A stretch of DNA of 64,000 nt. It comes from an uncultured Gemmatimonadota bacterium (GTDB lineage: Bacteria; JAAXHH01). The number at the start of each line of letters is the position of its first letter. The first letter of the stretch is position 1. Shown piece after piece: positions 4,132 to 28,892 of this stretch. The notes beneath the pieces are model-generated. The model did no database searches. It was not told the DNA's origin and saw only the letters and a list, made by a program, of their open reading frames with translations. The position numbers and the translations under genes were made by a program. Location: contig OX638340.1 in assembly GCA_951812955.1 (NCBI GenBank), positions 320,001-384,000 on the forward strand, read 5' to 3'.

Positions 4132-5676
4132 ATGGCCTTCGACGTCGTCATTCGCGGCGGTGAGGTGATCGATGGTACAGGGAAGACCGGCCGGTACCGG
4201 GCGGACGTGGGACTGCGGGACGGCCGCGTGGAGGGGATCGGAGACCTGGCGAATGTCGAGGCCGCCCGGACCATCGACGCCGGGGGCCACATCGTCTGCC
4301 CCGGCTTTATCGACGTCCACGTACACTCCGAGAATTCCCTGCTTGGCGGCCGCGACCAGATGGGCGGTCTCCGTCAGGGCGTGACGACCCACTTGCTCGC
4401 GCCGGATGGATTCGGCTGGGCGGGTTTGGCTCCCGAGGATGCCCTGCCCCTATGGCACTACACGCAGTTTGCCTACGGCGAGCCTTTGGAACCGGTCAAT
4501 TGGCCCACCATCGAATCCTACCTGGACCTCTTTCCCGGCCGCTCGCCGGCCAACGTGTATCCGCAGGTTCCGCACTGCGCCGTCCGCGTCAAGGCCATGG
4601 GCTGGGATCCCGGGCCTCCGAGTCCGGACCAGTTGAGAGTCATGGAAACCGAGACCCGTGCGTGGATGGAAGCCGGCGCCGGATGCCTCTGCCTGGGACT
4701 GGACTACCAGCCCAGCGCCAACGCGCCTTTCGAGGAACTGGTGGCGCTGTGCAAGGTGGCCCTGGAATACGACGGGATCTACGCCGCACACCTGAGGTAC
4801 CAGATCCTGGGAAGGGACCGGGCCTGGCAGGAGATCATCGACCTGAATCGCGCAAGCGGCATACCCGTTCATGTATCCCACGAACGCGTCGACGGCATGA
4901 CGGGTCCGATCCTTGAACAGGCGATGAAGGACGGTGTGGACATCACCTTCGAGTCCTATCTCTACCCGGCCGGCATGACGCATATCACGATGCAACTGCC
5001 CATGTGGATCCAGACGGGCAGTCCGGATGAAGTCCTCGAAAAAATGCGCCAGCCGGATACCCGCCGCGAGGCGCTCGAATATCTGAAATCGACGAACCTG
5101 GCTGACAGGCAGTACATCGGATATACGCGATCCGGCAAGTTCGCGGGGATGACCCTGGGCGAGGCCGCGCGGAGCGTGAACAAGTCCAACGAGGAGTTTG
5201 CCTACGACCTTGTGCTCGATGAAGACGGAATACAGACGTTCATCATGTTCTGGCCGGTTCCACAGGAGGAAGTCGACACCGTGTTGAACCGGACGGCGCC
5301 CCATCCCCTCATGATGGTCGCCAGCGACGGCGTCTATGATTGTACCCATCCCCATCCCCGGGGGCAGGGATGTTTCGCCCAGATGCTCAGGAAATTCGTA
5401 AGGGAGCGCGATCTGCTCTCCCTTGAAGAAGCCGTATACAAGATGAGCGGCTTCCCGGCGGAACGTTACCGGTTGAAAGACCGGGGCGTGTTGCGCGAAG
5501 GCGCTCCGGCGGACGTGGTCGTCTTCGATCCTCAGACCGTGGCCGACCGGGCTACCTTTGAAGCGCCGATTCAACCTCCCGACGGCATTCCCCATGTTTT
5601 CGTCAACGGCATTCCGGTTATCGAAGACCACGAGCCCACGAAGCACCGTCCGGGCCAGGTCCTGCGCAGAGGATAG
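4132..5676 (+). CDS. N-acyl-D-amino-acid deacylase (D-aminoacylase) family amidohydrolase
   Basis: N-terminus DVVIRGGEVIDGTG...GHIVCPGFIDVHVH gives the metal-binding HxH of the amidohydrolase fold. About 510 aa, typical for D-aminoacylases. AGGAGG precedes the ATG. Confidence 0.85.
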   Translation: MAFDVVIRGGEVIDGTGKTGRYRADVGLRDGRVEGIGDLANVEAARTIDAGGHIVCPGFIDVHVHSENSLLGGRDQMGGLRQGVTTHLLAPDGFGWAGLAPEDALPLWHYTQFAYGEPLEPVNWPTIESYLDLFPGRSPANVYPQVPHCAVRVKAMGWDPGPPSPDQLRVMETETRAWMEAGAGCLCLGLDYQPSANAPFEELVALCKVALEYDGIYAAHLRYQILGRDRAWQEIIDLNRASGIPVHVSHERVDGMTGPILEQAMKDGVDITFESYLYPAGMTHITMQLPMWIQTGSPDEVLEKMRQPDTRREALEYLKSTNLADRQYIGYTRSGKFAGMTLGEAARSVNKSNEEFAYDLVLDEDGIQTFIMFWPVPQEEVDTVLNRTAPHPLMMVASDGVYDCTHPHPRGQGCFAQMLRKFVRERDLLSLEEAVYKMSGFPAERYRLKDRGVLREGAPADVVVFDPQTVADRATFEAPIQPPDGIPHVFVNGIPVIEDHEPTKHRPGQVLRRG

Positions 5677-5697
5677 GAAGGGAAGAGTTTCAACTAC

Positions 5698-7500
5698 ATG
5701 GATTGGGATCTGGCTTCATACTTTCCTGCTTTTGACGGACCGGAGATGCGCCGATTCAAGGCCGACCTGAAGGCCGACCTGGATGCTTTGCAGTCCGAAG
5801 CATCGGACACGGCGGTACTGGACTCCGGTAACCAGGAAGCGTGGGAGCGTATTGTCCTCTCCTTCGAAAGTGCCGTCACCCGGTTGAGGCACCTGGGTTC
5901 CTATGTCTCCTGTATAAACTCCGCCGACGCGAACAACGAAGATTTCGCCGCCGAGGAAGGCGCGTTGAGCCTGCTGGACGCACGGATGTCGAAGGTTCAC
6001 GTCGAACTGCAGCGGGGGTTCGAGTCTTCTTCAGACGAGGATTTCGAAACTTTCGTTACCCGTCCCGCGCTCCGCGACGCCCGGTACCGTATCTCGCGTA
6101 TACGGGAGCAATCCCGGCATACCATGTCCACGGAAAAAGAACACCTGGCATCGGACCTGGGCGTAGACGGTATCGAGGCCTGGGGCCGTCTATACGACCG
6201 GATATCGGGCAAGCTGACCTTCGAGATGGCTTATCCGGACGGCCGGCGGGAAGAGATTCCCATGTCGCAGCGACGGGCCCTCATGGAACACCCCGACCGG
6301 CGGGTTCGCCGCGCCGCCTTCGAGGGGGGCAACGAGGCCTGGGCGTCTGTCGAAACCGTGCCGGCAGCCGCGTTGAACGCCATCGGGGGCACGCGGTTGA
6401 CGCTGTACCGCCATCGAGGCATGGACCACTATCTCGACCGGGCCCTCTTCCAGGCGGCGATCTCACGGGAGACGCTGGAAGCCATGTTTGAAGCCGTTTT
6501 CGCTGAGATCGACATCGCCCGGAACATCCTGGCGTTCAAGGCGAGCCTCATGGGCGGCGAAAATTTGGGCTGGTACGATATCTCGGCGCCCCTGACTGTA
6601 CCGCACCAGGACGAACCTTCCTGGGATGACGCCACGGCCCTGGTGCATCGGGCCTTTGCGGCCGGGTATCCGGCCCTGGCGGACTATACGGCCGAGGCTT
6701 ACGAGAAAAAATGGATCGACTGGTCGCCACTACCGGGCAAGCGCCCCGGAGCCTTCTGCACCGGATCTCCCCTTACGAAAGAGTCCCGGGTCTACATGAC
6801 CTACAACGACAACATGGGCGACGTGCTGACCCTCGCCCACGAGCTGGGACACGCCTTTCATGGCCATTTGATGCGTTCGGAACGTACGCTGAACCGCGCC
6901 TATCCGATGACCCTCGCCGAATCGGCTTCCACCTTCGGCGAGATGCTGCTCATGCGCGGGTTGCTGGATGAGCCAGGGGTCGGCGCGGAGACCAGGGCAT
7001 TTCTGCTCAACCTGGAGGCCAGCGACGGGGCCACCTACCTGCTGGACATTCCCGTGAGATTCGAGTTTGAGAAAGCGTTTCATGATGAAAGGCCGAACGG
7101 CGAAGTCGCTGTCGGACGGTTGAAGGAACTGATGGTCGACACACAGCGCCGCGTACTGGGGGACGTACTGGATCCCGCGGGCGCCGATCCCTATTTCTGG
7201 GCGTCCAAACTCCATTTTTACATCACGGATACCACGTTTTACAATTTTCCCTATACCTTCGGCTTCCTGCTCAGCCGGGGTCTCTTCGCCCAATACGAGC
7301 AGGAAGGCCCGGATTTTCTACCGAGATACGAACAATACCTGAAACTGACTGGTAGCGACACGGCCGAAAACGTGGTCCAGCGAACCGTTGGGATCGACCT
7401 CACCGAACCTGGGTTCTGGTCCGACGCCATACGCAGCCTGGAGGGCGTTCTGGATCAGCTCAAGGCCAGTGTGGCTGATAGCCGGGCCGTGTTGAACTAG
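5698..7500 (+). CDS. pepF: oligoendopeptidase F (peptidase M3B)
   Basis: HEXXH zinc motif (HELGHAFHGHL), about 600 aa, M3B PepF architecture. SD is GAAGGGAAGAG. Confidence 0.9.
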   Translation: MDWDLASYFPAFDGPEMRRFKADLKADLDALQSEASDTAVLDSGNQEAWERIVLSFESAVTRLRHLGSYVSCINSADANNEDFAAEEGALSLLDARMSKVHVELQRGFESSSDEDFETFVTRPALRDARYRISRIREQSRHTMSTEKEHLASDLGVDGIEAWGRLYDRISGKLTFEMAYPDGRREEIPMSQRRALMEHPDRRVRRAAFEGGNEAWASVETVPAAALNAIGGTRLTLYRHRGMDHYLDRALFQAAISRETLEAMFEAVFAEIDIARNILAFKASLMGGENLGWYDISAPLTVPHQDEPSWDDATALVHRAFAAGYPALADYTAEAYEKKWIDWSPLPGKRPGAFCTGSPLTKESRVYMTYNDNMGDVLTLAHELGHAFHGHLMRSERTLNRAYPMTLAESASTFGEMLLMRGLLDEPGVGAETRAFLLNLEASDGATYLLDIPVRFEFEKAFHDERPNGEVAVGRLKELMVDTQRRVLGDVLDPAGADPYFWASKLHFYITDTTFYNFPYTFGFLLSRGLFAQYEQEGPDFLPRYEQYLKLTGSDTAENVVQRTVGIDLTEPGFWSDAIRSLEGVLDQLKASVADSRAVLN

Positions 7501-23618: not shown

Positions 23619-24962
23619 ATGCGCCCTGCGAAAGCTACAGCCACCACGACCGCCCATCCCTTCTCAAATAGACCCCACGCCACACTCATTCGGCTAACTT
23701 TTCCCGTTCTGCTCTCGCTGATCGCGGAACCGCTTACCGGCCTCGTGGACACCGCCTTCATCAAGCAACTCGGCGCGGAGTCCCTCGCCGCCCTCGGCGT
23801 CGGCGCCGTCGCGCTATCTGGCCTCTTCTGGGTCTTTAACTTTCTCGGTATCAGCACCCAGACGGAAGTGGCCCAGGCCGAGGGCGACAACGACAGGAAC
23901 CGGTCCGTTTCCATGAGCAGCCTGGCCCTCTGCATGAGCATGGCTTTCGGACTGCTGATCATCGTCTTCGGCGTTCCGCTTACGTCGTATCTCGCGACGC
24001 TACTGGGCGCTGCCGGCGCAATACACGACGGGGCCGTGGACTACATCTGGTGGCGGTGGTTCGGTGCGCCGGCCATCCTGATCACGCTGACGGCCAGCGG
24101 AGCCTTGCGGGGACTTCAGGATATGCGCTCGCCGCTCTGGATCGCCCTGGGCATCAACGGCATCAATATCGTGCTCGATCCCATGCTCATATTCGGTGCG
24201 GGACCTGTGCCCGCGCTGGGGATCACCGGAGCGGCAGTAGCCAGCGTCATCGCCTATTGGATCGGCGCCGCCTGGTCGCTCTGGATCATAAAACGCAAGC
24301 TTGGCTGGTCCCTGCCGGCTGATTTCAGCGCGGTTGGCCGACTGATGCGCACGGGCACCGATCTTTTCATACGCACCGGCGTACTGAACCTGTTTCTCCT
24401 CCTGACGACCCGCGAAGCCACGCACGGCGGCGCAGACGTCGGGGCCGCACACCAGGCGATCAGGCAGGTCTGGATGTTCGGCACGTTCGTACTGGACGCG
24501 CTGGCCGTCACGGGACAGAGCCTGGTCGGTTACTTTCTCGGCGGCGAACGGATCAGAAGCGCCAGGAAAGTGGCCCGAATCGTCTGCCTGTGGAGCGTAT
24601 GGTCCGGATGCCTGCTTGGGTTCGTTCTCTGGCTGGGAAGCGGGTTCGTGGTCGATCTGCTCGTGCCTCCCAGCGCCGCTCCCTATTTCCATTCGGCCTG
24701 GATCGTCGCCATCGCCGTACAACCGCTCAACGCCCTGGCCTTCGCCACCGATGGATTGCACTGGGGATCGGGGGACTACCGGTACCTGAGAAACGCGGTG
24801 ATCCTGGCGACCGGCGCCGGCGCGGCCGGACTGCTGGCCGGCCCCCACTCCCTGGACTGGATCTGGATAATGACGGCGGTCTGGATCAGCGTCCGCGCCA
24901 CGCTGGGGGTGATACGGATCTGGCCCGGGGTGGGGAACAGTCCGTTTCGGGTGGAGGACTAA
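23619..24962 (+). CDS. MATE family efflux transporter
   Basis: Twelve predicted TM segments with the 2x6 MATE layout and N-terminal FPVLLSLIAEPLTGLVDTAFI. The ATG at 23619 is used; the ORF-track GTG at 23613 abuts the dadA stop. Confidence 0.85.
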   Translation: MRPAKATATTTAHPFSNRPHATLIRLTFPVLLSLIAEPLTGLVDTAFIKQLGAESLAALGVGAVALSGLFWVFNFLGISTQTEVAQAEGDNDRNRSVSMSSLALCMSMAFGLLIIVFGVPLTSYLATLLGAAGAIHDGAVDYIWWRWFGAPAILITLTASGALRGLQDMRSPLWIALGINGINIVLDPMLIFGAGPVPALGITGAAVASVIAYWIGAAWSLWIIKRKLGWSLPADFSAVGRLMRTGTDLFIRTGVLNLFLLLTTREATHGGADVGAAHQAIRQVWMFGTFVLDALAVTGQSLVGYFLGGERIRSARKVARIVCLWSVWSGCLLGFVLWLGSGFVVDLLVPPSAAPYFHSAWIVAIAVQPLNALAFATDGLHWGSGDYRYLRNAVILATGAGAAGLLAGPHSLDWIWIMTAVWISVRATLGVIRIWPGVGNSPFRVED

Positions 24963-25361
24963 TTATGCCTGCCAAACTATTGATTGTACGACTTCGGCTA
25001 AGTCCTTGTCGAAGGTTTTAACGTCACTGACACCTCGACGTTGGCAACTCGCCAAGTGGCAGAGGTCTCTCGCTTTAAGTTTGGGATACTGAAAGTGAAG
25101 TTGGTGGGCAAGATACACGTCTCCACCCTCAAACGGCCAGACTACAATTCCCCGATCCGAAATGAATTCTACCGCTTCCCCGAAAGTTGGCAGTCGATTT
25201 GTGGCAAGGTACACATGCAACAGTTCCTGCAAAACTTCTGTGGAAGTACATAACTGATTGGGTTTGCGGACGGACGCACGAAAGAACTCCCGTGCTTGCT
25301 CTCTCCGTGGATGCTCCTTGCCGACCGCATACATGAAAACGTTGGTGTCGACAAAGATCAT
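24963..25361 (-). CDS. PIN-domain ribonuclease (VapC-like type II toxin)
   Basis: Canonical PIN acidic tetrad spacing: D5 (MIFVDTNVF), E43 (TSTEVLQE), D98 (ARDLCH), D116-118 (DKDL). 132 aa. GC about 50%, below the genome norm. Its start overlaps the upstream gene's stop (ATGA). Confidence 0.82.
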   Translation of the reverse strand: MIFVDTNVFMYAVGKEHPRREQAREFFRASVRKPNQLCTSTEVLQELLHVYLATNRLPTFGEAVEFISDRGIVVWPFEGGDVYLAHQLHFQYPKLKARDLCHLASCQRRGVSDVKTFDKDLAEVVQSIVWQA

Positions 25362-26344
25362 GTATTCGTGGTTCCGCTTCCTTTCGACTGCTTGATGACT
25401 TCAAGTTGCTCTTCCCAATCAGGTTCCGATTTGGGACCAGGGAGGTCGTCGCACTTGTCAAAAAAGGTATCCAGTTCAGCCAATTTCTCGATGGCTTCCT
25501 TCTCTGATAGAATGTAGTTCTTTCTTTGGGTATGGAGTTCCTTGAGCCATATCTCGAATTCGTCGTGGCGGTCCCGTCGTTTTCGGTCGAAAAACCCGTC
25601 AGTATTCCTTATCTCGTTAAAAAGGGTGTACGCTATGCCCGCGATACTCGCGAGATAGTAGTACTCCTGGCCTTCATAGATGGAAATCGGGTATTCTGTT
25701 CCTTTCATCGCGTACCGTTCAAAGTTTATGCCGATCGCAATATCGTGTCGTCTCTCGTCTTCGCTTGAGGCATTTCCGAATACTTCGGCCAACCAAGTGT
25801 TTTCCGGGTATGCACCCAATATGTCTTCTTCTTCGGATTGGTTCTCGTATGGGATGACGACGCAACGTTCGAATTCAAGGCTGTTTTTCCTAGCGTCTAT
25901 GAGCAACTTCTGGATGTTATGGCCATAGTTCCCTTTGAGATCAATCGGCAATATCCTCTCGTCCTTGAAGAGCATGTATGCCTTGAGACCCAACTCAACA
26001 CCGTGTAGGAAGTTATATACCGTCGATTGATGAGTTTCCGGAAATAACAGATCGAATGATTTCTTCCAGTCGCGAGATAGTTCATTGCGCGCTATCCGTA
26101 CGAACTCCTTTCCATGTTCGAAAAACTCCCTATGGCCGAACCACTGCTCACCGATGGGCGTATGAGTGAACTGGGATTCGTTCTTCTTGTCATTACGAAT
26201 ATGTAGATTAATGAGTTCACGGGCTTCATCCCGGTCCAACGATTTGCGTTTTCCGGTACCGTCTTGTTGATAGAATCGGCCTTCCGTGTCACGTACTACC
26301 GTTATGTTTGGTGATGTATTGAAATGGTACTGTTTTAGTTTCAT
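25358..26344 (-). CDS. hypothetical protein (328 aa, K/E-rich, low-GC) translationally coupled to the PIN nuclease
   Basis: Clean ORF with SD AAGGA 9 nt upstream of the ATG at 26344. GC is about 45% against about 62% in flanking genes. Stop overlaps the PIN start by 4 nt. No recognisable catalytic motif: no Fic, NTase, P-loop or HTH. Possible weak HEPN-like K-x4-H (KGNYGH). Confidence 0.7.
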   Translation of the reverse strand: MKLKQYHFNTSPNITVVRDTEGRFYQQDGTGKRKSLDRDEARELINLHIRNDKKNESQFTHTPIGEQWFGHREFFEHGKEFVRIARNELSRDWKKSFDLLFPETHQSTVYNFLHGVELGLKAYMLFKDERILPIDLKGNYGHNIQKLLIDARKNSLEFERCVVIPYENQSEEEDILGAYPENTWLAEVFGNASSEDERRHDIAIGINFERYAMKGTEYPISIYEGQEYYYLASIAGIAYTLFNEIRNTDGFFDRKRRDRHDEFEIWLKELHTQRKNYILSEKEAIEKLAELDTFFDKCDDLPGPKSEPDWEEQLEVIKQSKGSGTTNT

Positions 26345-26522
26345 TTGGCGATGTCCTTCTAAATGCTCTCCTTTGATGAATTGGCCGTACTATTGACTAT
26401 GCATTGAAATTCGCAGAATACAGGGTAGCCGTCAAACGGAATTTGATCATTACATTCTGGATTCATGATTACTGTTTGTGAGCGTGGACTGTACGCGTGA
26501 TTATGACATCTGAGTTCTCTGC

Positions 26523-26840
26523 TCAGTCGAACTGGTCCAGGAGTTCCTCGATAGGTTCTTTGCCAGGCCATGCGCCTGCAAGTTCAATAGGATCGAGATT
26601 TCGTGCGTGCTCCGCTTTGTCCGACAACAGATCATGCGGTTGTTGAGTTTCTACGGATGGTATTACCTCGAATGCGCCTTCCTTTACCAGTCGACGGCTG
26701 ATACGGCGAACTTCGATCAGTCTCGCCTGACCGTTGGGCCTGAAATGTACCATCCCTTCGACAGTGACCTGCTTACCCCATAGAAAACGCCGGGCCTCAA
26801 TTTTCAAAGGCTCGGCGCATATCCTTCCCGAAGCGAGCAA
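26523..26840 (-). CDS. hypothetical small protein (doubtful; 76-105 aa)
   Basis: The ORF-track ORF starts with TTG; the first ATG gives 76 aa (start 26753). Intermediate GC. It lies between the 583-aa gene and the low-GC PIN module. No motif and no SD. Could be a gene remnant. Confidence 0.3.
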   Translation of the reverse strand: MLASGRICAEPLKIEARRFLWGKQVTVEGMVHFRPNGQARLIEVRRISRRLVKEGAFEVIPSVETQQPHDLLSDKAEHARNLDPIELAGAWPGKEPIEELLDQFD

Positions 26841-26882
26841 GCGGGCAAGTTCGCTTGTAATGACCGCGCTTGAACCAGTGAT

Positions 26883-28634
26883 TCAGCTCCACGGAAACTC
26901 GAAGGTCGGCCGGTTCACGTACCGTTCCATGGCGATCTCTATCCGAACCCCAGAACCGGGCGCGAGCAGAAGTTTGAGATAGTCGCCGGTCACTTCCACG
27001 GTCCCCCCATTCCCTTCCGCTGCGTCGCGACCGACTGTAAACGATTTCAACGTGTGCTCCCGATAGGCGCCGCCCTGGATGACGACCTCCGAGGGCTCCA
27101 CGGGATTTACATTGACCAGGGTTACTGCCGATTCCGTATCGCCGACCGTATCCACAAGGGCCGCCACGTCCTGTGGAAGGCCTGGCCGGCGCTCCACGGG
27201 ATCGAAATACCGGAACATGCAGTGAACCGCCTGGGCGCGCTTCGGGGCGGGACCGCCCATGGTCTGCTGAAAGAGTGTGCCCGGAGTCGCCGGGTTGACG
27301 GCATTCGTGTTGTCTGACAGGCGCGTGTCCGGCGTCATGGTATCGTTGCGTATCCATTCCACTTTTTCGCGGACGGACGCCAGGTCGGCGTGCAACGCCT
27401 CCTCGGGGTAATTGGGGTTTTCGCCGCTCAGGTAACTCATCCACGCATCATCCGGGCAGCGCGCCCGGGCCTCCTCCGACATCGACCAGTACCAGGTCTC
27501 CATCGTGCCGACACGGTAGGGGTTCGGTGTGTAGTTGTACCATCCGTCGTCCCCGAACTTGTTCGGGTACTGCATCTGGCCGTCCACTACCCGTCCGTTT
27601 TCGTTGATGAGGTCGATCATCTCGCTCCACGGCGCCGCGTAGGAGCGGTCCCCGGTCAGCAGCAGCGCGTGACTGAAGCCCGACAGGCCCAGTTGGATCG
27701 TGTCGCGGTGCACGATCCGGCCGTCCTGGGGCGCGACGGTCGTGAATCCCCATCCATAACACCCGCCGTACCACTTGCCGTCGCAGGCGCCGCCGATGGT
27801 GCCGTCCAGTCCGATATTGGTGGGGATGATGCCGCCGTTCGCCCGGGTGCGTTCGACCCACGAGTCCACATATTCCAGGATCCATTCCCGGTATTTGTCC
27901 TCGCCCGTCAGCGCGTAGGCATTGAAGGCCAGTCCCGTCGCGAGCATGTTGGAGGGATGGTCGCCTATCACGTCGGTATAGTCTTTGAAATGGCCCAGCA
28001 TTTCCTCGAAGTTGCGCTCGCCGTGGGCCAGGACGAAGCGGCCCTCCTCGATGGGATCGCCCGCCCAGTCGATGGGCTCGGCCTTGCGCAGCATGGGGCC
28101 TCGGCTCCCGTTGAACAGGCTGCGGATGATCCGGTGTTCCGGGTCGTAGTTACGCGCCCCGGGATCCTCGTCCATGTAGAAACCGGACCACTGCCGCACC
28201 CGCCGCTCGAATTCCTCCGCGCCCGGGTCACAGAGACCGAGGTCGCCGAAGACCGACATGCTCTCGCCGTTGTGAAGCCAGTCGAACATGACGGGGAATT
28301 CCTTGTAGTACATCCCGTCCCGGCAGAAGGGCACGTCCACTGTCTTCGCCTCGGTGTACTGGAGGATGTGGCCGTCCTGCGCCTGGTTGCTCATGTCGAG
28401 CAGGTTCTCCGGACCGCCCATCATGTACAGAACAGGCCATCCGGTCAGGTTTTCGATGGCGTCGTCAGGACCGTCGTCGCCGCCCCAGCGGGGCACGCAG
28501 CGCATGTAACCCCGCTCGTCGAAGTAACGGTCGTAGAAGTATTCGCAGGCCCGCGCCTGGGCTTTAAGGGACTCCTTCTGCAGGAGGGCCCAGGATGGGG
28601 GTGGCATCGGTGTGGTGATGGTCAGGGTGGTCAT
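26883..28634 (-). CDS. hypothetical protein (583 aa, no recognised domain)
   Basis: Long ORF with genome-typical GC and codon bias, Trp/Gly/Asp-rich. No confident motif. Antisense ORFs 27054..27317 and 27390..28646 are rejected as shadows. Confidence 0.65.
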   Translation of the reverse strand: MTTLTITTPMPPPSWALLQKESLKAQARACEYFYDRYFDERGYMRCVPRWGGDDGPDDAIENLTGWPVLYMMGGPENLLDMSNQAQDGHILQYTEAKTVDVPFCRDGMYYKEFPVMFDWLHNGESMSVFGDLGLCDPGAEEFERRVRQWSGFYMDEDPGARNYDPEHRIIRSLFNGSRGPMLRKAEPIDWAGDPIEEGRFVLAHGERNFEEMLGHFKDYTDVIGDHPSNMLATGLAFNAYALTGEDKYREWILEYVDSWVERTRANGGIIPTNIGLDGTIGGACDGKWYGGCYGWGFTTVAPQDGRIVHRDTIQLGLSGFSHALLLTGDRSYAAPWSEMIDLINENGRVVDGQMQYPNKFGDDGWYNYTPNPYRVGTMETWYWSMSEEARARCPDDAWMSYLSGENPNYPEEALHADLASVREKVEWIRNDTMTPDTRLSDNTNAVNPATPGTLFQQTMGGPAPKRAQAVHCMFRYFDPVERRPGLPQDVAALVDTVGDTESAVTLVNVNPVEPSEVVIQGGAYREHTLKSFTVGRDAAEGNGGTVEVTGDYLKLLLAPGSGVRIEIAMERYVNRPTFEFPWS

Positions 28635-28892
28635 GGGACAGACTAATTCAGCTGCTAGGAAGTCTTTGATATTGGATCTTGCTAATGCTCAATTGCCGTG
28701 GTATTCAGGACTGCGTCTGTATGACTTAGTCTCATATAGACTATACAAAAAGTCAAGTATTGAAGGAGTTTCCTTATCGCCAACTTCGTTCAGGAAAGCA
28801 TACCTTCACGACTAAGCGGACTAACATAGAAGCCGGCGGTGATGCGATGCGTGAGCATTTGATATTGCGACGGAGGTCATGGAGGGCATTGC

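What the first reader, a model, noticed from the sequence alone, without database searches (positions are those of the whole stretch)
24963..26880. Low-GC island carrying a 328-aa orphan protein translationally coupled to a PIN (VapC-like) nuclease: candidate novel toxin/defence module
The segment 24963-26520 drops to roughly 45-50% GC inside a roughly 62% GC genome, with K/E-rich codon usage.

- It sits between a MATE gene, which ends at 24962 with zero spacing to the PIN stop, and a large hypothetical gene.
- It has two genes on the minus strand. The 328-aa protein has a good SD and its stop overlaps the PIN start as ATGA. The 132-aa PIN protein has the full D/E/D/D catalytic tetrad.
- Canonical VapBC pairs have an antitoxin of about 70-90 aa with a DNA-binding fold upstream. 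Here the upstream partner is four times larger, has no AbrB, RHH, Phd or HTH-like N-terminus that I can see, and carries only a weak HEPN-like K-x4-H.
- The architecture, a large sensor/regulator partner plus a PIN effector on a horizontally acquired islet, resembles two-gene anti-phage/abortive-infection systems rather than a housekeeping TA.

The doubtful 76-105 aa ORF (26523-26840), in intermediate GC between the island and the 583-aa gene, may be a remnant of the same insertion.
Basis: partly seen in the sequence, partly recalled or inferred. Interest (0 to 1): 0.72.

Follow-up and report, generated by a model that had tools for sequence, protein, structure and literature searches.

The report
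HEPN-domain antitoxin paired with PIN toxin
The 328-aa "orphan" is a HEPN-fold protein that carries the toxin-binding tail of a small VapB antitoxin and sits in front of that tail's matching PIN (VapC) toxin, so this is an unusual variant of a common toxin-antitoxin pair, inherited at one spot in a clade of uncultured bacteria, and not a wholly new defence system.

Summary
Two minus-strand genes, 328 aa and a 132-aa PIN, overlap by ATGA. GC is about 0.46-0.49 against about 0.63 in the flanks.

**What the 328-aa protein is:**
- A small N-terminal beta domain of unidentified fold.
- A 46-residue C-terminal tail shared with at least 75 small (47-115 aa) RHH- or Phd-type antitoxins. Four of six checked lie directly upstream of PINs 50-58% identical to this one.

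**Tail and PIN go together.** Nine of 11 tail-bearing loci keep an intact PIN. None of 11 tail-less relatives has one.

**Best reading:** a VapBC-type toxin-antitoxin pair whose antitoxin has a HEPN body in place of the usual DNA-binding domain.

**Not a recent islet.** The pair lies beside the same MATE gene in about 10 related MAGs. It also occurs once as a two-gene unit in an unrelated context.

**Defence role unsupported.** There are no PADLOC hits and the neighbours are metabolic genes. The role of the HEPN body is unknown.

Verdict: new variant of a known kind, moderate interest.

The parts
24963..25361 (-). PIN (VapC-like) toxin gene, 132 aa. Acidic tetrad D5/E42/D99/D118.
   Evidence: Pfam PIN PF01850, E = 3e-18. 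D5, E42 and D99 are invariant in 12 subfamily members, and D118 is present wherever the sequence reaches that position. dN/dS is 0.12-0.32 in comparisons between the window and the related loci. It is 50-58% identical to PINs encoded directly downstream of small tail-bearing antitoxins.
25358..26344 (-). Chimeric antitoxin gene, 328 aa: N-terminal beta domain, HEPN-fold body and VapB-type toxin-binding tail.
   Evidence: ORF. 39 homologous clusters. AF2 model with pLDDT 71.5 and pTM 0.71. dN/dS is 0.14-0.27 in comparisons between the window and the related loci.
26177..26344 (-). Residues 1-56: four beta strands plus one helix, with conserved R18, D19, G22, R38, A41 and R42. Fold not identified.
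25514..26146 (-). Residues 67-277: HEPN-fold helical body.
25982..25996 (-). E117-L-G-L-K121: the Ex3[KR] motif of HEPN helix 2.
   Evidence: Invariant in alignments A1 and A3, including the distant relatives. The motif is defined in PMC3710099.
25919..25936 (-). K137-x4-H142: the position of the Rx4-6H-type motif. H142 is invariant. Residue 137 is K or R.
   Evidence: Distant relatives have R-x4-5-H at this position. Some close relatives carry a 7-residue insert between the K and the H.
25361..25498 (-). Residues 283-328: VapB-type tail (..LDTFFDKCDDLPGPKSEPDWEEQLEVIKQSKGSGTTNT). Predicted PIN-neutralising segment.
   Evidence: Homologous to the C-termini of at least 75 small RHH- or Phd-type antitoxins. 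Low pLDDT in the monomer model. Its presence tracks PIN presence.
25358..25361 (-). ATGA stop/start overlap (translational coupling).
   Evidence: The same (A/G)TGA junction, followed by TCTT(T/C)GT(C/A)GA, is found in both the HEPN-fused and the small-antitoxin operons.
26407..26435 (-). Candidate operon promoter: TTGACG, 17 nt, GAATTT. The -35-like box is conserved in all syntenic loci. The -10 is weak in the window.
   Evidence: Alignment A7: TTGAC is invariant in 6 loci, whether or not the orf105 segment is present. The consensus scan did not call it. Function is inferred only.
26523..26840 (-). orf105: 5'-truncated copy of a family of about 138 aa. Probably a remnant and not part of the operon.
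   Evidence: Eight homologues of 109-175 aa. The window copy lacks about 35 N-terminal residues. The segment is present in L020 and, frameshifted, in L014. It is absent in L006, L009 and L011.

Best explanation
This is a type II, VapBC-like toxin-antitoxin operon with a chimeric antitoxin.

**Components**
- The PIN protein is the toxin, a Mg-dependent RNase that is most likely active.
- The 328-aa protein is its antitoxin.

**Proposed neutralisation mechanism**
- The C-terminal 46 residues are disordered when the protein is alone.
- This tail is the same toxin-binding module used by small RHH- or Phd-type antitoxins of this PIN subfamily.
- It is inferred to wrap the PIN and block its active-site groove.

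**The HEPN body**
- The usual N-terminal DNA-binding and dimerising domain has been replaced by a body of about 280 aa, made of a small beta domain plus a HEPN-T-like four-helix domain.
- This body also exists as a free-standing protein, so it has its own function.
- I infer that it supplies dimerisation, as HEPN domains typically do.
- It may also bind RNA or a nucleotide, or have residual RNase activity. That would couple PIN release to whatever the HEPN body senses, or to proteolysis of the antitoxin.

**Shown versus inferred**
- Shown: the homology, the gene architecture, the co-occurrence of tail and PIN, and the purifying selection.
- Inferred: toxicity, tail-mediated neutralisation, and the role of the HEPN body.
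For: 1. **The PIN is intact.** PF01850 at E = 3e-18, with a conserved acidic tetrad.

2. **The tail is a known antitoxin module.** An exhaustive HMMER search matched residues about 250-328 to free-standing proteins of 63-115 aa. They share the motif FFxxCDxLxGPxxEPDWEEHLxVIxxSRxxGxxxT. A tail profile found 62 small proteins of 31-88 aa, most of them not seen in the first search.

3. **Those small proteins look like antitoxins.** Their N-termini are RHH-like, and one is Phd above the NCBIfam cutoff.

4. **They pair with the same PIN subfamily.** Four of six checked are followed, with a 4-nt overlap, by PINs 50-58% identical to the window PIN.

5. **Tail and PIN travel together within the HEPN family.**
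   - Of 11 tail-bearing loci, 9 have an intact PIN, 1 has a remnant and 1 has a deletion.
   - None of 11 tail-less or HEPN-only loci has a PIN.
   - Fisher's exact test gives p = 2e-4, though the loci are not phylogenetically independent.

6. **The pair moves as a unit.** It occurs in an unrelated genomic context in L031.

7. **The junction is shared.** The stop/start junction is identical in the fused and the small-antitoxin operons.

8. **Both genes are under purifying selection**.

9. **Decay follows toxin-antitoxin logic.** PIN is lost while the antitoxin stays (L006, L007), or tail and PIN are lost together (L013, L014, and the tail-less close relatives P0013, P0018, P0023 and P0024). 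A PIN without a tail-bearing partner is never seen.

Against: - There is no experiment and no model of the complex.
- In the L006/L007 lineage the PIN was lost before the two split, yet the tail is still under purifying selection. Its dN/dS is 0.11, the same as the body. The tail may therefore do something beyond neutralising the cis-encoded PIN.
- Two of the six small tail-bearing proteins checked have no adjacent PIN.
- The antitoxin lacks any detectable DNA-binding domain, so the classical autoregulation loop is missing.
- HEPN domains are normally toxins, not antitoxin scaffolds (PMC3710099, PMC2701414).
- Close relatives have K in place of R, and some have a 7-residue insert inside the motif.
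Confidence: 0.7

Rival explanations
1. The pair is a two-gene anti-phage or abortive-infection system. The HEPN body acts as the sensor or regulator, PIN is the effector, and infection triggers PIN release.
For: - Tail-less relatives lie next to Mrr_cat, SIR2_2, a type I R-M S subunit plus DUF4007, HicAB, a recombinase or an IS element.
- The module has atypical GC and is mobile as a unit.
- Many toxin-antitoxin systems do defend against phage (PMC10440598).
Against: - There are no PADLOC hits for either protein or for 10 neighbouring genes.
- The window context is metabolic and transport genes: ADH, M19 peptidase, SBP_bac_5, DAO, MATE, aldolase, PhyH and an enolase-family protein.
- The locus is vertically syntenic in about 10 MAGs, not in a variable defence island.
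- There are no homologues in the phage or plasmid collections.
- PIN has been lost in several lineages without replacement.
Confidence: 0.2
2. The HEPN body is itself an active RNase effector or toxin. The locus is then a dual-nuclease module in which the tail-PIN contact regulates HEPN, or the reverse, and is not a simple toxin/antitoxin pair.
For: - The invariant H114, E117, K121 and H142 sit at HEPN catalytic-type positions, and distant relatives have a canonical Rx4-5H.
- The HEPN body is under strong purifying selection, with dN/dS 0.09-0.25.
- It persists with an intact reading frame after tail and PIN are lost in L013 and in the close tail-less relatives P0013, P0018, P0023 and P0024.
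- The tail remains under selection after PIN loss.
Against: - Free-standing forms have no conserved neighbour that could serve as an antitoxin or as the MNT partner expected for HEPN toxins.
- Most close relatives have K in place of R, and some have a 7-residue insert in the motif.
- The R is required for catalysis in the HEPN RNases where it has been tested (PMC3710099).
Confidence: 0.15
3. The long ORF is an assembly or annotation artefact, or a decaying pseudogene: a HEPN gene accidentally read through into a small vapB gene.
For: - Weak similarity between residues about 250-280 and the RHH helix region of the small antitoxins could mark a fusion junction.
- L012 and L014 do carry disrupted copies.
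Against: - The same uninterrupted ORF of 327-336 aa is present in at least 9 independent assemblies.
- dN/dS is about 0.1-0.3 in all three parts of the protein.
- Residues 250-290 are also conserved in the tail-less distant relatives, so they belong to the HEPN family body.
- No RHH ribbon is present.
Confidence: 0.02

Closest known systems
VapBC type II toxin-antitoxin systems (PIN toxin plus RHH, AbrB or Phd antitoxin)
   Same: - The toxin is a PIN with the acidic tetrad.
- The antitoxin gene lies immediately upstream and is translationally coupled.
- The antitoxin's C-terminal tail is homologous to that of bona fide small antitoxins of the same PIN subfamily.
- The modular 'mix-and-match' of antitoxin N-domains, which is known for these systems, is seen here too: RHH, Phd and HEPN bodies all carry one tail.
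   Different: - The antitoxin is 328 aa, not about 70-100 aa.
- It has no detectable DNA-binding domain.
- Its body is a HEPN-fold protein that also exists independently.
- HEPN is not among the PIN partners catalogued in PMC2701414, which lists RHH, AbrB, PHD, COG2442, COG2886, COG2856-HTH, MerR and others.
HEPN-MNT toxin-antitoxin systems and the HEPN-T (PF05168-like) clade
   Same: - A four-helix HEPN fold.
- An Ex3K motif followed by a ...GH[ND][IL]xxLL pattern, as in HEPN-T proteins.
- The best structural matches are 4nqf, the sacsin HEPN domain, TT1696, AF0298 and MNT-associated HEPN toxins.
   Different: - There is no MNT nucleotidyltransferase partner in the window or in any locus examined.
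- No HEPN HMM hit.
- The protein carries an extra N-terminal beta domain, a large insert and a VapB tail.
- Here the HEPN protein occupies the antitoxin position. PMC2701414 states that HEPN-MNT occurs strictly as a unique pair, apart from a few domain fusions.
Eukaryotic Swt1 (PIN fused to HEPN domains)
   Same: It combines a PIN RNase with a HEPN domain that may be catalytically inactive and serve in binding or sensing (PMC3710099).
   Different: - Swt1 is a single polypeptide with PIN at the N-terminus, and it is eukaryotic.
- Here there are two genes, the HEPN gene is upstream, and the proteins are joined functionally only through an antitoxin tail.
- No sequence relationship was shown.
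Solo Abi-type HEPN proteins (AbiV, AbiU2, AbiD/F, AbiJ)
   Same: - The free-standing tail-less relatives resemble solo HEPN proteins found near R-M or defence genes.
- AbiJ-type proteins likewise have variable N-terminal domains.
- Sel1-repeat genes lie nearby in the window, L005 and L031. PMC3710099 notes the same association for AbiU2.
   Different: - No PADLOC or Pfam match to any Abi family.
- None of these families is known to carry a VapB tail or to pair with PIN.

Membership tests
VapBC type II TA | Toxin is a PIN domain with four conserved acidic residues | tested here: met
   PF01850, E = 3e-18. D5, E42 and D99 are invariant, and D118 is present in every member whose sequence reaches it. 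The NCBIfam VapC subfamily model TIGR00028 scores only 32.9 against a cutoff of 73.6, so this is a divergent PIN subfamily.
VapBC type II TA | Antitoxin gene directly upstream, in the same operon and translationally coupled | tested here: met
   ATGA overlap at 25358-25361. The junction is conserved in 11 related operons.
VapBC type II TA | Antitoxin C-terminal region is the toxin-binding, neutralising segment | tested here: inconclusive
   Homology of the tail to small antitoxins of the same PIN subfamily and tail/PIN co-occurrence support this. Physical binding could not be modelled or tested.
VapBC type II TA | Antitoxin N-terminus is a DNA-binding domain (RHH, AbrB, Phd or HTH) that autoregulates the operon | tested here: not met
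VapBC type II TA | Toxin inhibits growth and the antitoxin rescues it | not testable with these tools
   Requires expression experiments.
HEPN superfamily | Four-helix up-down bundle with the HEPN topology | tested here: met
HEPN superfamily | Ex3[KR] motif in helix 2 | tested here: met
   E117-x3-K121 is invariant in all 29 + 5 sequences. Motif definition from PMC3710099.
HEPN superfamily | Rx4-6H motif (catalytic) | tested here: inconclusive
   H142 is invariant. The window has K137-x4-H142, and some family members have R at 137. Distant relatives have R-x4-5-H. Several close relatives have a 7-residue insert between the K and the H. The pattern may instead correspond to the 'alternative His' of AF0298/AbiV-type HEPN-T proteins.
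HEPN superfamily | Match to a curated HEPN HMM or to PDB HEPN sequences | tested here: not met
   No HEPN family in Pfam for the window protein, for the 29 members of A1, or for the 5 distant relatives. Profile search against PDB sequences was negative.
HEPN-MNT TA | Adjacent minimal nucleotidyltransferase (MNT) partner | tested here: not met
   The neighbours are the PIN, MATE and an unknown 583-aa protein. No NTase was seen in the called genes of any related locus.
Known anti-phage defence systems (PADLOC-DB v2) | Match to a defence-system protein model, or a defence-island context | tested here: not met
   No hits for the 328-aa protein, PIN, orf105, the 583-aa protein or 10 neighbouring genes. 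The neighbourhood is metabolic.

The most novel reading that the evidence does not exclude
The HEPN body is an active sensor or RNase and not a passive scaffold.

- The complex would be a two-RNase conflict module. A HEPN protein holds a PIN toxin through a borrowed VapB tail and releases or redirects it when the HEPN domain meets its ligand, such as phage or damaged RNA or a nucleotide signal.
- The tail would also act in trans on other PINs. That would explain why it stays under selection after the cis-encoded PIN is lost.
- This would be the first HEPN-based 'sensor antitoxin'. It would also be a counter-example to the view that HEPN partners only with MNT.
Probability: 0.2. Interest if true: 0.75.

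Novelty: new variant of a known kind. Interest (0 to 1): 0.5.

Why it matters
**Why it matters if true**
- Type II antitoxins are regarded as small DNA-binding proteins with a disordered toxin-binding tail. HEPN domains are regarded as toxins that pair with MNT.
- Here a HEPN-fold protein has taken over the antitoxin role for a VapC by carrying the tail of a small antitoxin.
- This extends the known modularity of antitoxins to a large body that does not bind DNA and resembles a toxin.
- It gives a natural case for studying how toxin-binding tails are transplanted between proteins.
- It puts two RNase-type folds in one complex.
- It defines two uncurated families: the FFxxCD..EPDWEEHL antitoxin tail, and a HEPN family with an N-terminal beta domain.

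**Why it is of limited weight**
- The system is confined to a few uncultured lineages.
- No phenotype is known.

Tried and rejected
**Searches that returned nothing useful**
- HMM searches of the 328-aa protein against Pfam, NCBIfam, PADLOC and PHROGs gave nothing usable.
- A Pfam scan of all 29 family members and of 5 distant relatives found no HEPN model.
- PDB sequence searches with the single sequence and with profile A3 were negative.
- The PIN has no PDB sequence relative at E <= 0.01.
- The tail profile against PDB sequences found nothing.
- Foldseek against PDB gave no significant hit. HEPN entries appeared only at probability 0.1-0.2.
- The AFDB library was unavailable.

**Mobile-element and RNA checks**
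- No flanking direct or inverted repeats suggest an insertion boundary.
- The consensus scan found no terminator and no promoter upstream of the operon.
- There is no Rfam family, only a sub-threshold SorY hit.
- There are no homologues in the plasmid or phage collections.
- There is no second PIN or tail copy in the window.

**Ideas rejected**
- 'Recent horizontal islet', because of the synteny.
- 'MNT-HEPN pair', because no MNT is present.
- 'Read-through artefact', because the ORF is conserved in many assemblies.

**Left unresolved**
- Whether the tail was gained by the HEPN family or is ancestral to the family of about 300 aa and was lost repeatedly. Loss is clearly frequent.
- The source genome could not be looked up by exact protein.
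Full report
**1. The observation**

- On the minus strand there is a 328-aa ORF (25358-26344) and a 132-aa ORF (24963-25361). They overlap by ATGA.
- The convergent MATE gene (Pfam MatE) ends at 24962 and abuts the PIN stop codon.
- GC falls to 0.43-0.51 between about 24950 and 26750, against 0.61-0.67 on both sides.
- By gene, GC is 0.463 and 0.494 for the pair, against 0.639 and 0.632 for the flanking genes. GC3 is about 0.53 against about 0.80.
- The 132-aa protein is a PIN domain (PF01850, E = 3e-18). D5, E42 and D99 are invariant across 12 subfamily members, and D118 is present wherever the sequence reaches it.
- The 328-aa protein has no hit in Pfam, NCBIfam, PADLOC, PHROGs or PDB sequences.

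**2. What the 328-aa protein is**

It belongs to a small unnamed family of 39 clusters at 42-100% identity. The members come from MAGs labelled Latescibacterota, Gemmatimonadetes, Tectomicrobia, Foliamicus or simply 'bacterium'. The AF2 model (pLDDT 71.5, pTM 0.71) and the alignments resolve three parts.

- The two sequence hallmarks of the HEPN superfamily, as given in PMC3710099, are present.
- The Ex3[KR] motif (E117-x3-K121) is invariant.
- K137-x4-H142 has an invariant His.
- More distant relatives of 120-244 aa from Bryobacterales and Vicinamibacterales MAGs have a canonical R-x4-5-H at that position.
- The local pattern ELGLKA...GHNIQKLL resembles HEPN-T proteins.
- Caveats: no HEPN HMM is matched and Foldseek is not significant. 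Most close relatives have K in place of R, and some have a 7-residue insert in the motif. The fold assignment is good, but catalytic competence is uncertain.

(c) *Residues 283-328.* This tail has low confidence in the monomer model.

**3. The tail is a borrowed antitoxin module**

- An exhaustive HMMER search of 1.84 billion representative proteins matched residues about 250-328 to free-standing proteins of only 63-115 aa.
- They share the motif FFxxCDxLxGPxxEPDWEEHLxVIxxSRxxGxxxT.
- A tail-only profile found 62 small proteins of 31-88 aa, most of them new.
- The N-termini of these small proteins are RHH-like: weak RHH_1, NikA and RelB hits, and one with precomputed RHH_1 and NikA domains. 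In one case the N-terminus is a Phd domain above the NCBIfam cutoff.
- Of six whose contigs I examined, four are followed with a 4-nt overlap by a PIN 50-58% identical to the window PIN. Two have none.
- The stop/start junction, (A/G)TGA followed by TCTT(T/C)GT(C/A)GA, is the same in the small-antitoxin and the HEPN-fused operons.
- The tail and this PIN subfamily are therefore a cognate antitoxin-toxin pair. In the window the tail is attached to a HEPN body in place of a DNA-binding domain.

**4. Tail and PIN go together**

- There are 11 loci encoding a tail-bearing HEPN protein: the window, L005-L012, L020 and L031. Nine have an intact PIN immediately downstream. One has a 38-codon remnant (L006) and one has only fragments (L007).
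- There are 11 tail-less or HEPN-only loci: L002, L004, L013, L014, L033, L034 and L015-L019. None has a PIN.
- Fisher's exact test gives p = 2e-4, but the loci are not phylogenetically independent.
- Several close relatives (P0013, P0018, P0023, P0024, P0026 and P0030) end exactly where the tail would begin.
- I never saw a PIN of this subfamily without a tail-bearing gene in front of it.
- This asymmetric decay, where the toxin can be lost but is never left alone, is what toxin-antitoxin logic predicts.

**5. Genomic history**

- The pair is not a recent islet in this genome.
- In about 10 MAGs it lies between the same 583-aa hypothetical gene and the same MATE and FAD-oxidoreductase genes. 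Those flanking genes are 81-97% identical to the window's, while the pair is 63-91% (HEPN protein) and 67-76% (PIN) identical.
- The pair is equally GC-poor in every one of these loci. This lack of amelioration is unexplained.
- Divergence is mosaic. Against L005, the window's HEPN body has dS 0.14 but the tail 0.37 and PIN 0.47. Against L011, the whole HEPN gene has dS 1.19 but PIN only 0.48. This suggests that tail plus PIN recombine as a cassette.
- The most divergent tail-bearing member (P0028, 58% identity) is followed by a PIN with a GTG start, which the gene caller missed, in a completely different neighbourhood of Rieske, Sel1 and Fic-like genes. The two genes therefore also move as a unit.
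- Both genes, and all three parts of the large one, are under purifying selection, with dN/dS about 0.1-0.3.

**6. Context and defence**

- The window neighbourhood is metabolic and transport genes: two zinc ADHs, an M19 dipeptidase, SBP_bac_5, DAO, MATE, a Sel1-repeat protein, an aldolase, a Kelch protein, PhyH and an enolase-family protein.
- Neither the pair nor 10 neighbouring genes hit PADLOC.
- There are no homologues in the phage or plasmid collections.
- No flanking repeats, terminators or Rfam elements were found.
- The free-standing tail-less relatives do lie in regions rich in toxin-antitoxin, mobile-element or restriction genes: Mrr_cat, a 1268-aa SIR2_2 protein, a type I R-M S subunit plus DUF4007, HicAB, a serine recombinase and an IS transposase. 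They have no conserved partner and no MNT.

**7. Mechanism**

- *Shown:* the architecture, the homologies, the co-occurrence and the selection.
- *Inferred from established VapBC biology:* the PIN is an RNase toxin, and the tail wraps it and occludes the active site.
- *Inferred:* the HEPN body supplies the dimerisation normally given by the RHH or Phd domain. Without a DNA-binding domain the operon is probably not autoregulated in the classical way.
- A conserved TTGAC box 17 nt upstream of a GAnnTT box is present in all syntenic loci, about 90 nt before the start codon. I treat it as a candidate promoter only.
- The HEPN body has its own function, because it survives as a free-standing gene. 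I cannot tell whether that function is RNA or nucleotide binding, sensing, or RNase activity.
- One observation argues that the simple picture is incomplete. L006 and L007 share a deletion endpoint inside PIN, so the loss predates their split. Yet their tails have dN/dS = 0.11, the same as the body. The tail may also serve another partner.

**8. Comparison with what is known**

- The system works like VapBC and meets three defining features: a PIN toxin, a coupled upstream antitoxin gene, and a homologous neutralising tail.
- It fails the 'small DNA-binding antitoxin' feature.
- The body is a HEPN-fold protein but lacks the MNT partner of HEPN toxin-antitoxin systems.
- In the comparative survey PMC2701414, HEPN-MNT is said to occur strictly as a unique pair, and HEPN is not among the listed PIN partners.
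- The only PIN plus HEPN combination I found in the literature is eukaryotic Swt1. It is a single-chain fusion with a probably inactive HEPN (PMC3710099).
- I therefore rate this as a new variant of a known kind.

**9. The 105-aa ORF**

- It is a real sequence family with eight homologues of 109-175 aa at 55-95% identity.
- The window copy lacks the first 35 or so residues and starts 16 codons after the in-frame stop of the 583-aa gene.
- The segment is an indel polymorphism. It is present in the window, L020 and, frameshifted, L014. It is absent in L006, L009 and L011.
- It lies upstream of the conserved TTGAC box, so it is probably a remnant and not part of the operon.
- Its family is unidentified, with only a sub-threshold DUF5818 hit.

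**10. Verdict**

- The best explanation is a VapBC-type pair with a HEPN-bodied chimeric antitoxin (confidence 0.7).
- A defence role and an active HEPN remain open.
- Interest is moderate (0.5).

Noticed in passing
window 26523-26840 (-); also L020 124-438 and L014 about 5566-5724: orf105 is a 5'-truncated member of an uncharacterised family of about 138 aa (P0116-P0123), with a conserved C-terminus ...DPIELAGAWPGxEPIEELLxQLD. Two homologues sit on contigs whose lengths (207,240 and 190,040) match contigs that carry HEPN-family genes P0013 and P0005. The family may therefore often neighbour the HEPN gene.
   Followed up: partly
window 26407-26435 (-): A TTGAC(G) box followed 17 nt later by GAnnTT is conserved upstream of the HEPN gene in all six aligned syntenic loci. 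This is a candidate promoter that the consensus scan missed, because the -10 box is weak in the window.
   Followed up: partly
L005-L012 and the window, 24963-26344: The two-gene module keeps GC of about 0.46-0.50 (GC3 about 0.5-0.58) in every syntenic locus, although dS is up to > 1 and the flanking genes have GC3 of about 0.8. There is no amelioration. Divergence is also mosaic between the HEPN body and the tail plus PIN. Either recurrent recombination from a low-GC pool or selection on composition could explain this.
   Followed up: partly
L006 6987-7145 and L007 7008-7102: The PIN is deleted with a shared right-hand endpoint (AACTGTGGAC...) in two sister MAGs. The antitoxin, including its tail, stays intact and under purifying selection (tail dN/dS = 0.11).
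   Followed up: yes
L012 4250-5245: This copy of the HEPN gene has an in-frame stop at codon 36 and a premature stop four codons before the usual end, while its PIN is intact. It may be translated from an internal start, or it may be an early stage of decay.
   Followed up: no
window 29020-30945 (-); L005 5140-5685; L031 1695-2687: Sel1-repeat protein genes lie near the module in three different contexts. In L005 one is inserted between the 583-aa gene and the HEPN gene. PMC3710099 notes that AbiU2-type HEPN genes form operons with Sel1-repeat genes. The window's 641-aa Sel1 protein also has a long, extremely basic, low-complexity C-terminus.
   Followed up: no
window 26883-28634 (-): A 583-aa protein conserved at 84-89% identity in all syntenic MAGs has no Pfam, NCBIfam, PADLOC or PHROGs hit. 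This is a sizeable conserved protein of unknown function.
   Followed up: no
L004 4925-6882 and 7822-11724; L002 5247-5879; L034 1971-3395: Tail-less HEPN-family genes sit in defence-like contexts. One overlaps by 4 nt with an upstream 359-aa unknown gene and lies next to a SIR2_2 protein of about 1270-1300 aa. One lies beside an Mrr_cat nuclease. One lies beside a type I R-M S subunit and DUF4007.
   Followed up: partly
window 28550-29000 and 30800-31400: Two further GC dips, to about 0.44-0.50, occur in the intergenic regions flanking the Sel1-repeat gene.
   Followed up: no
P0060 (107 aa); P0045-P0115: The FFxxCD..EPDWEEHL antitoxin tail family (at least 75 clusters) has no Pfam or NCBIfam model. 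It occurs on both RHH-type and Phd-type N-domains, a clear case of antitoxin domain shuffling.
   Followed up: partly
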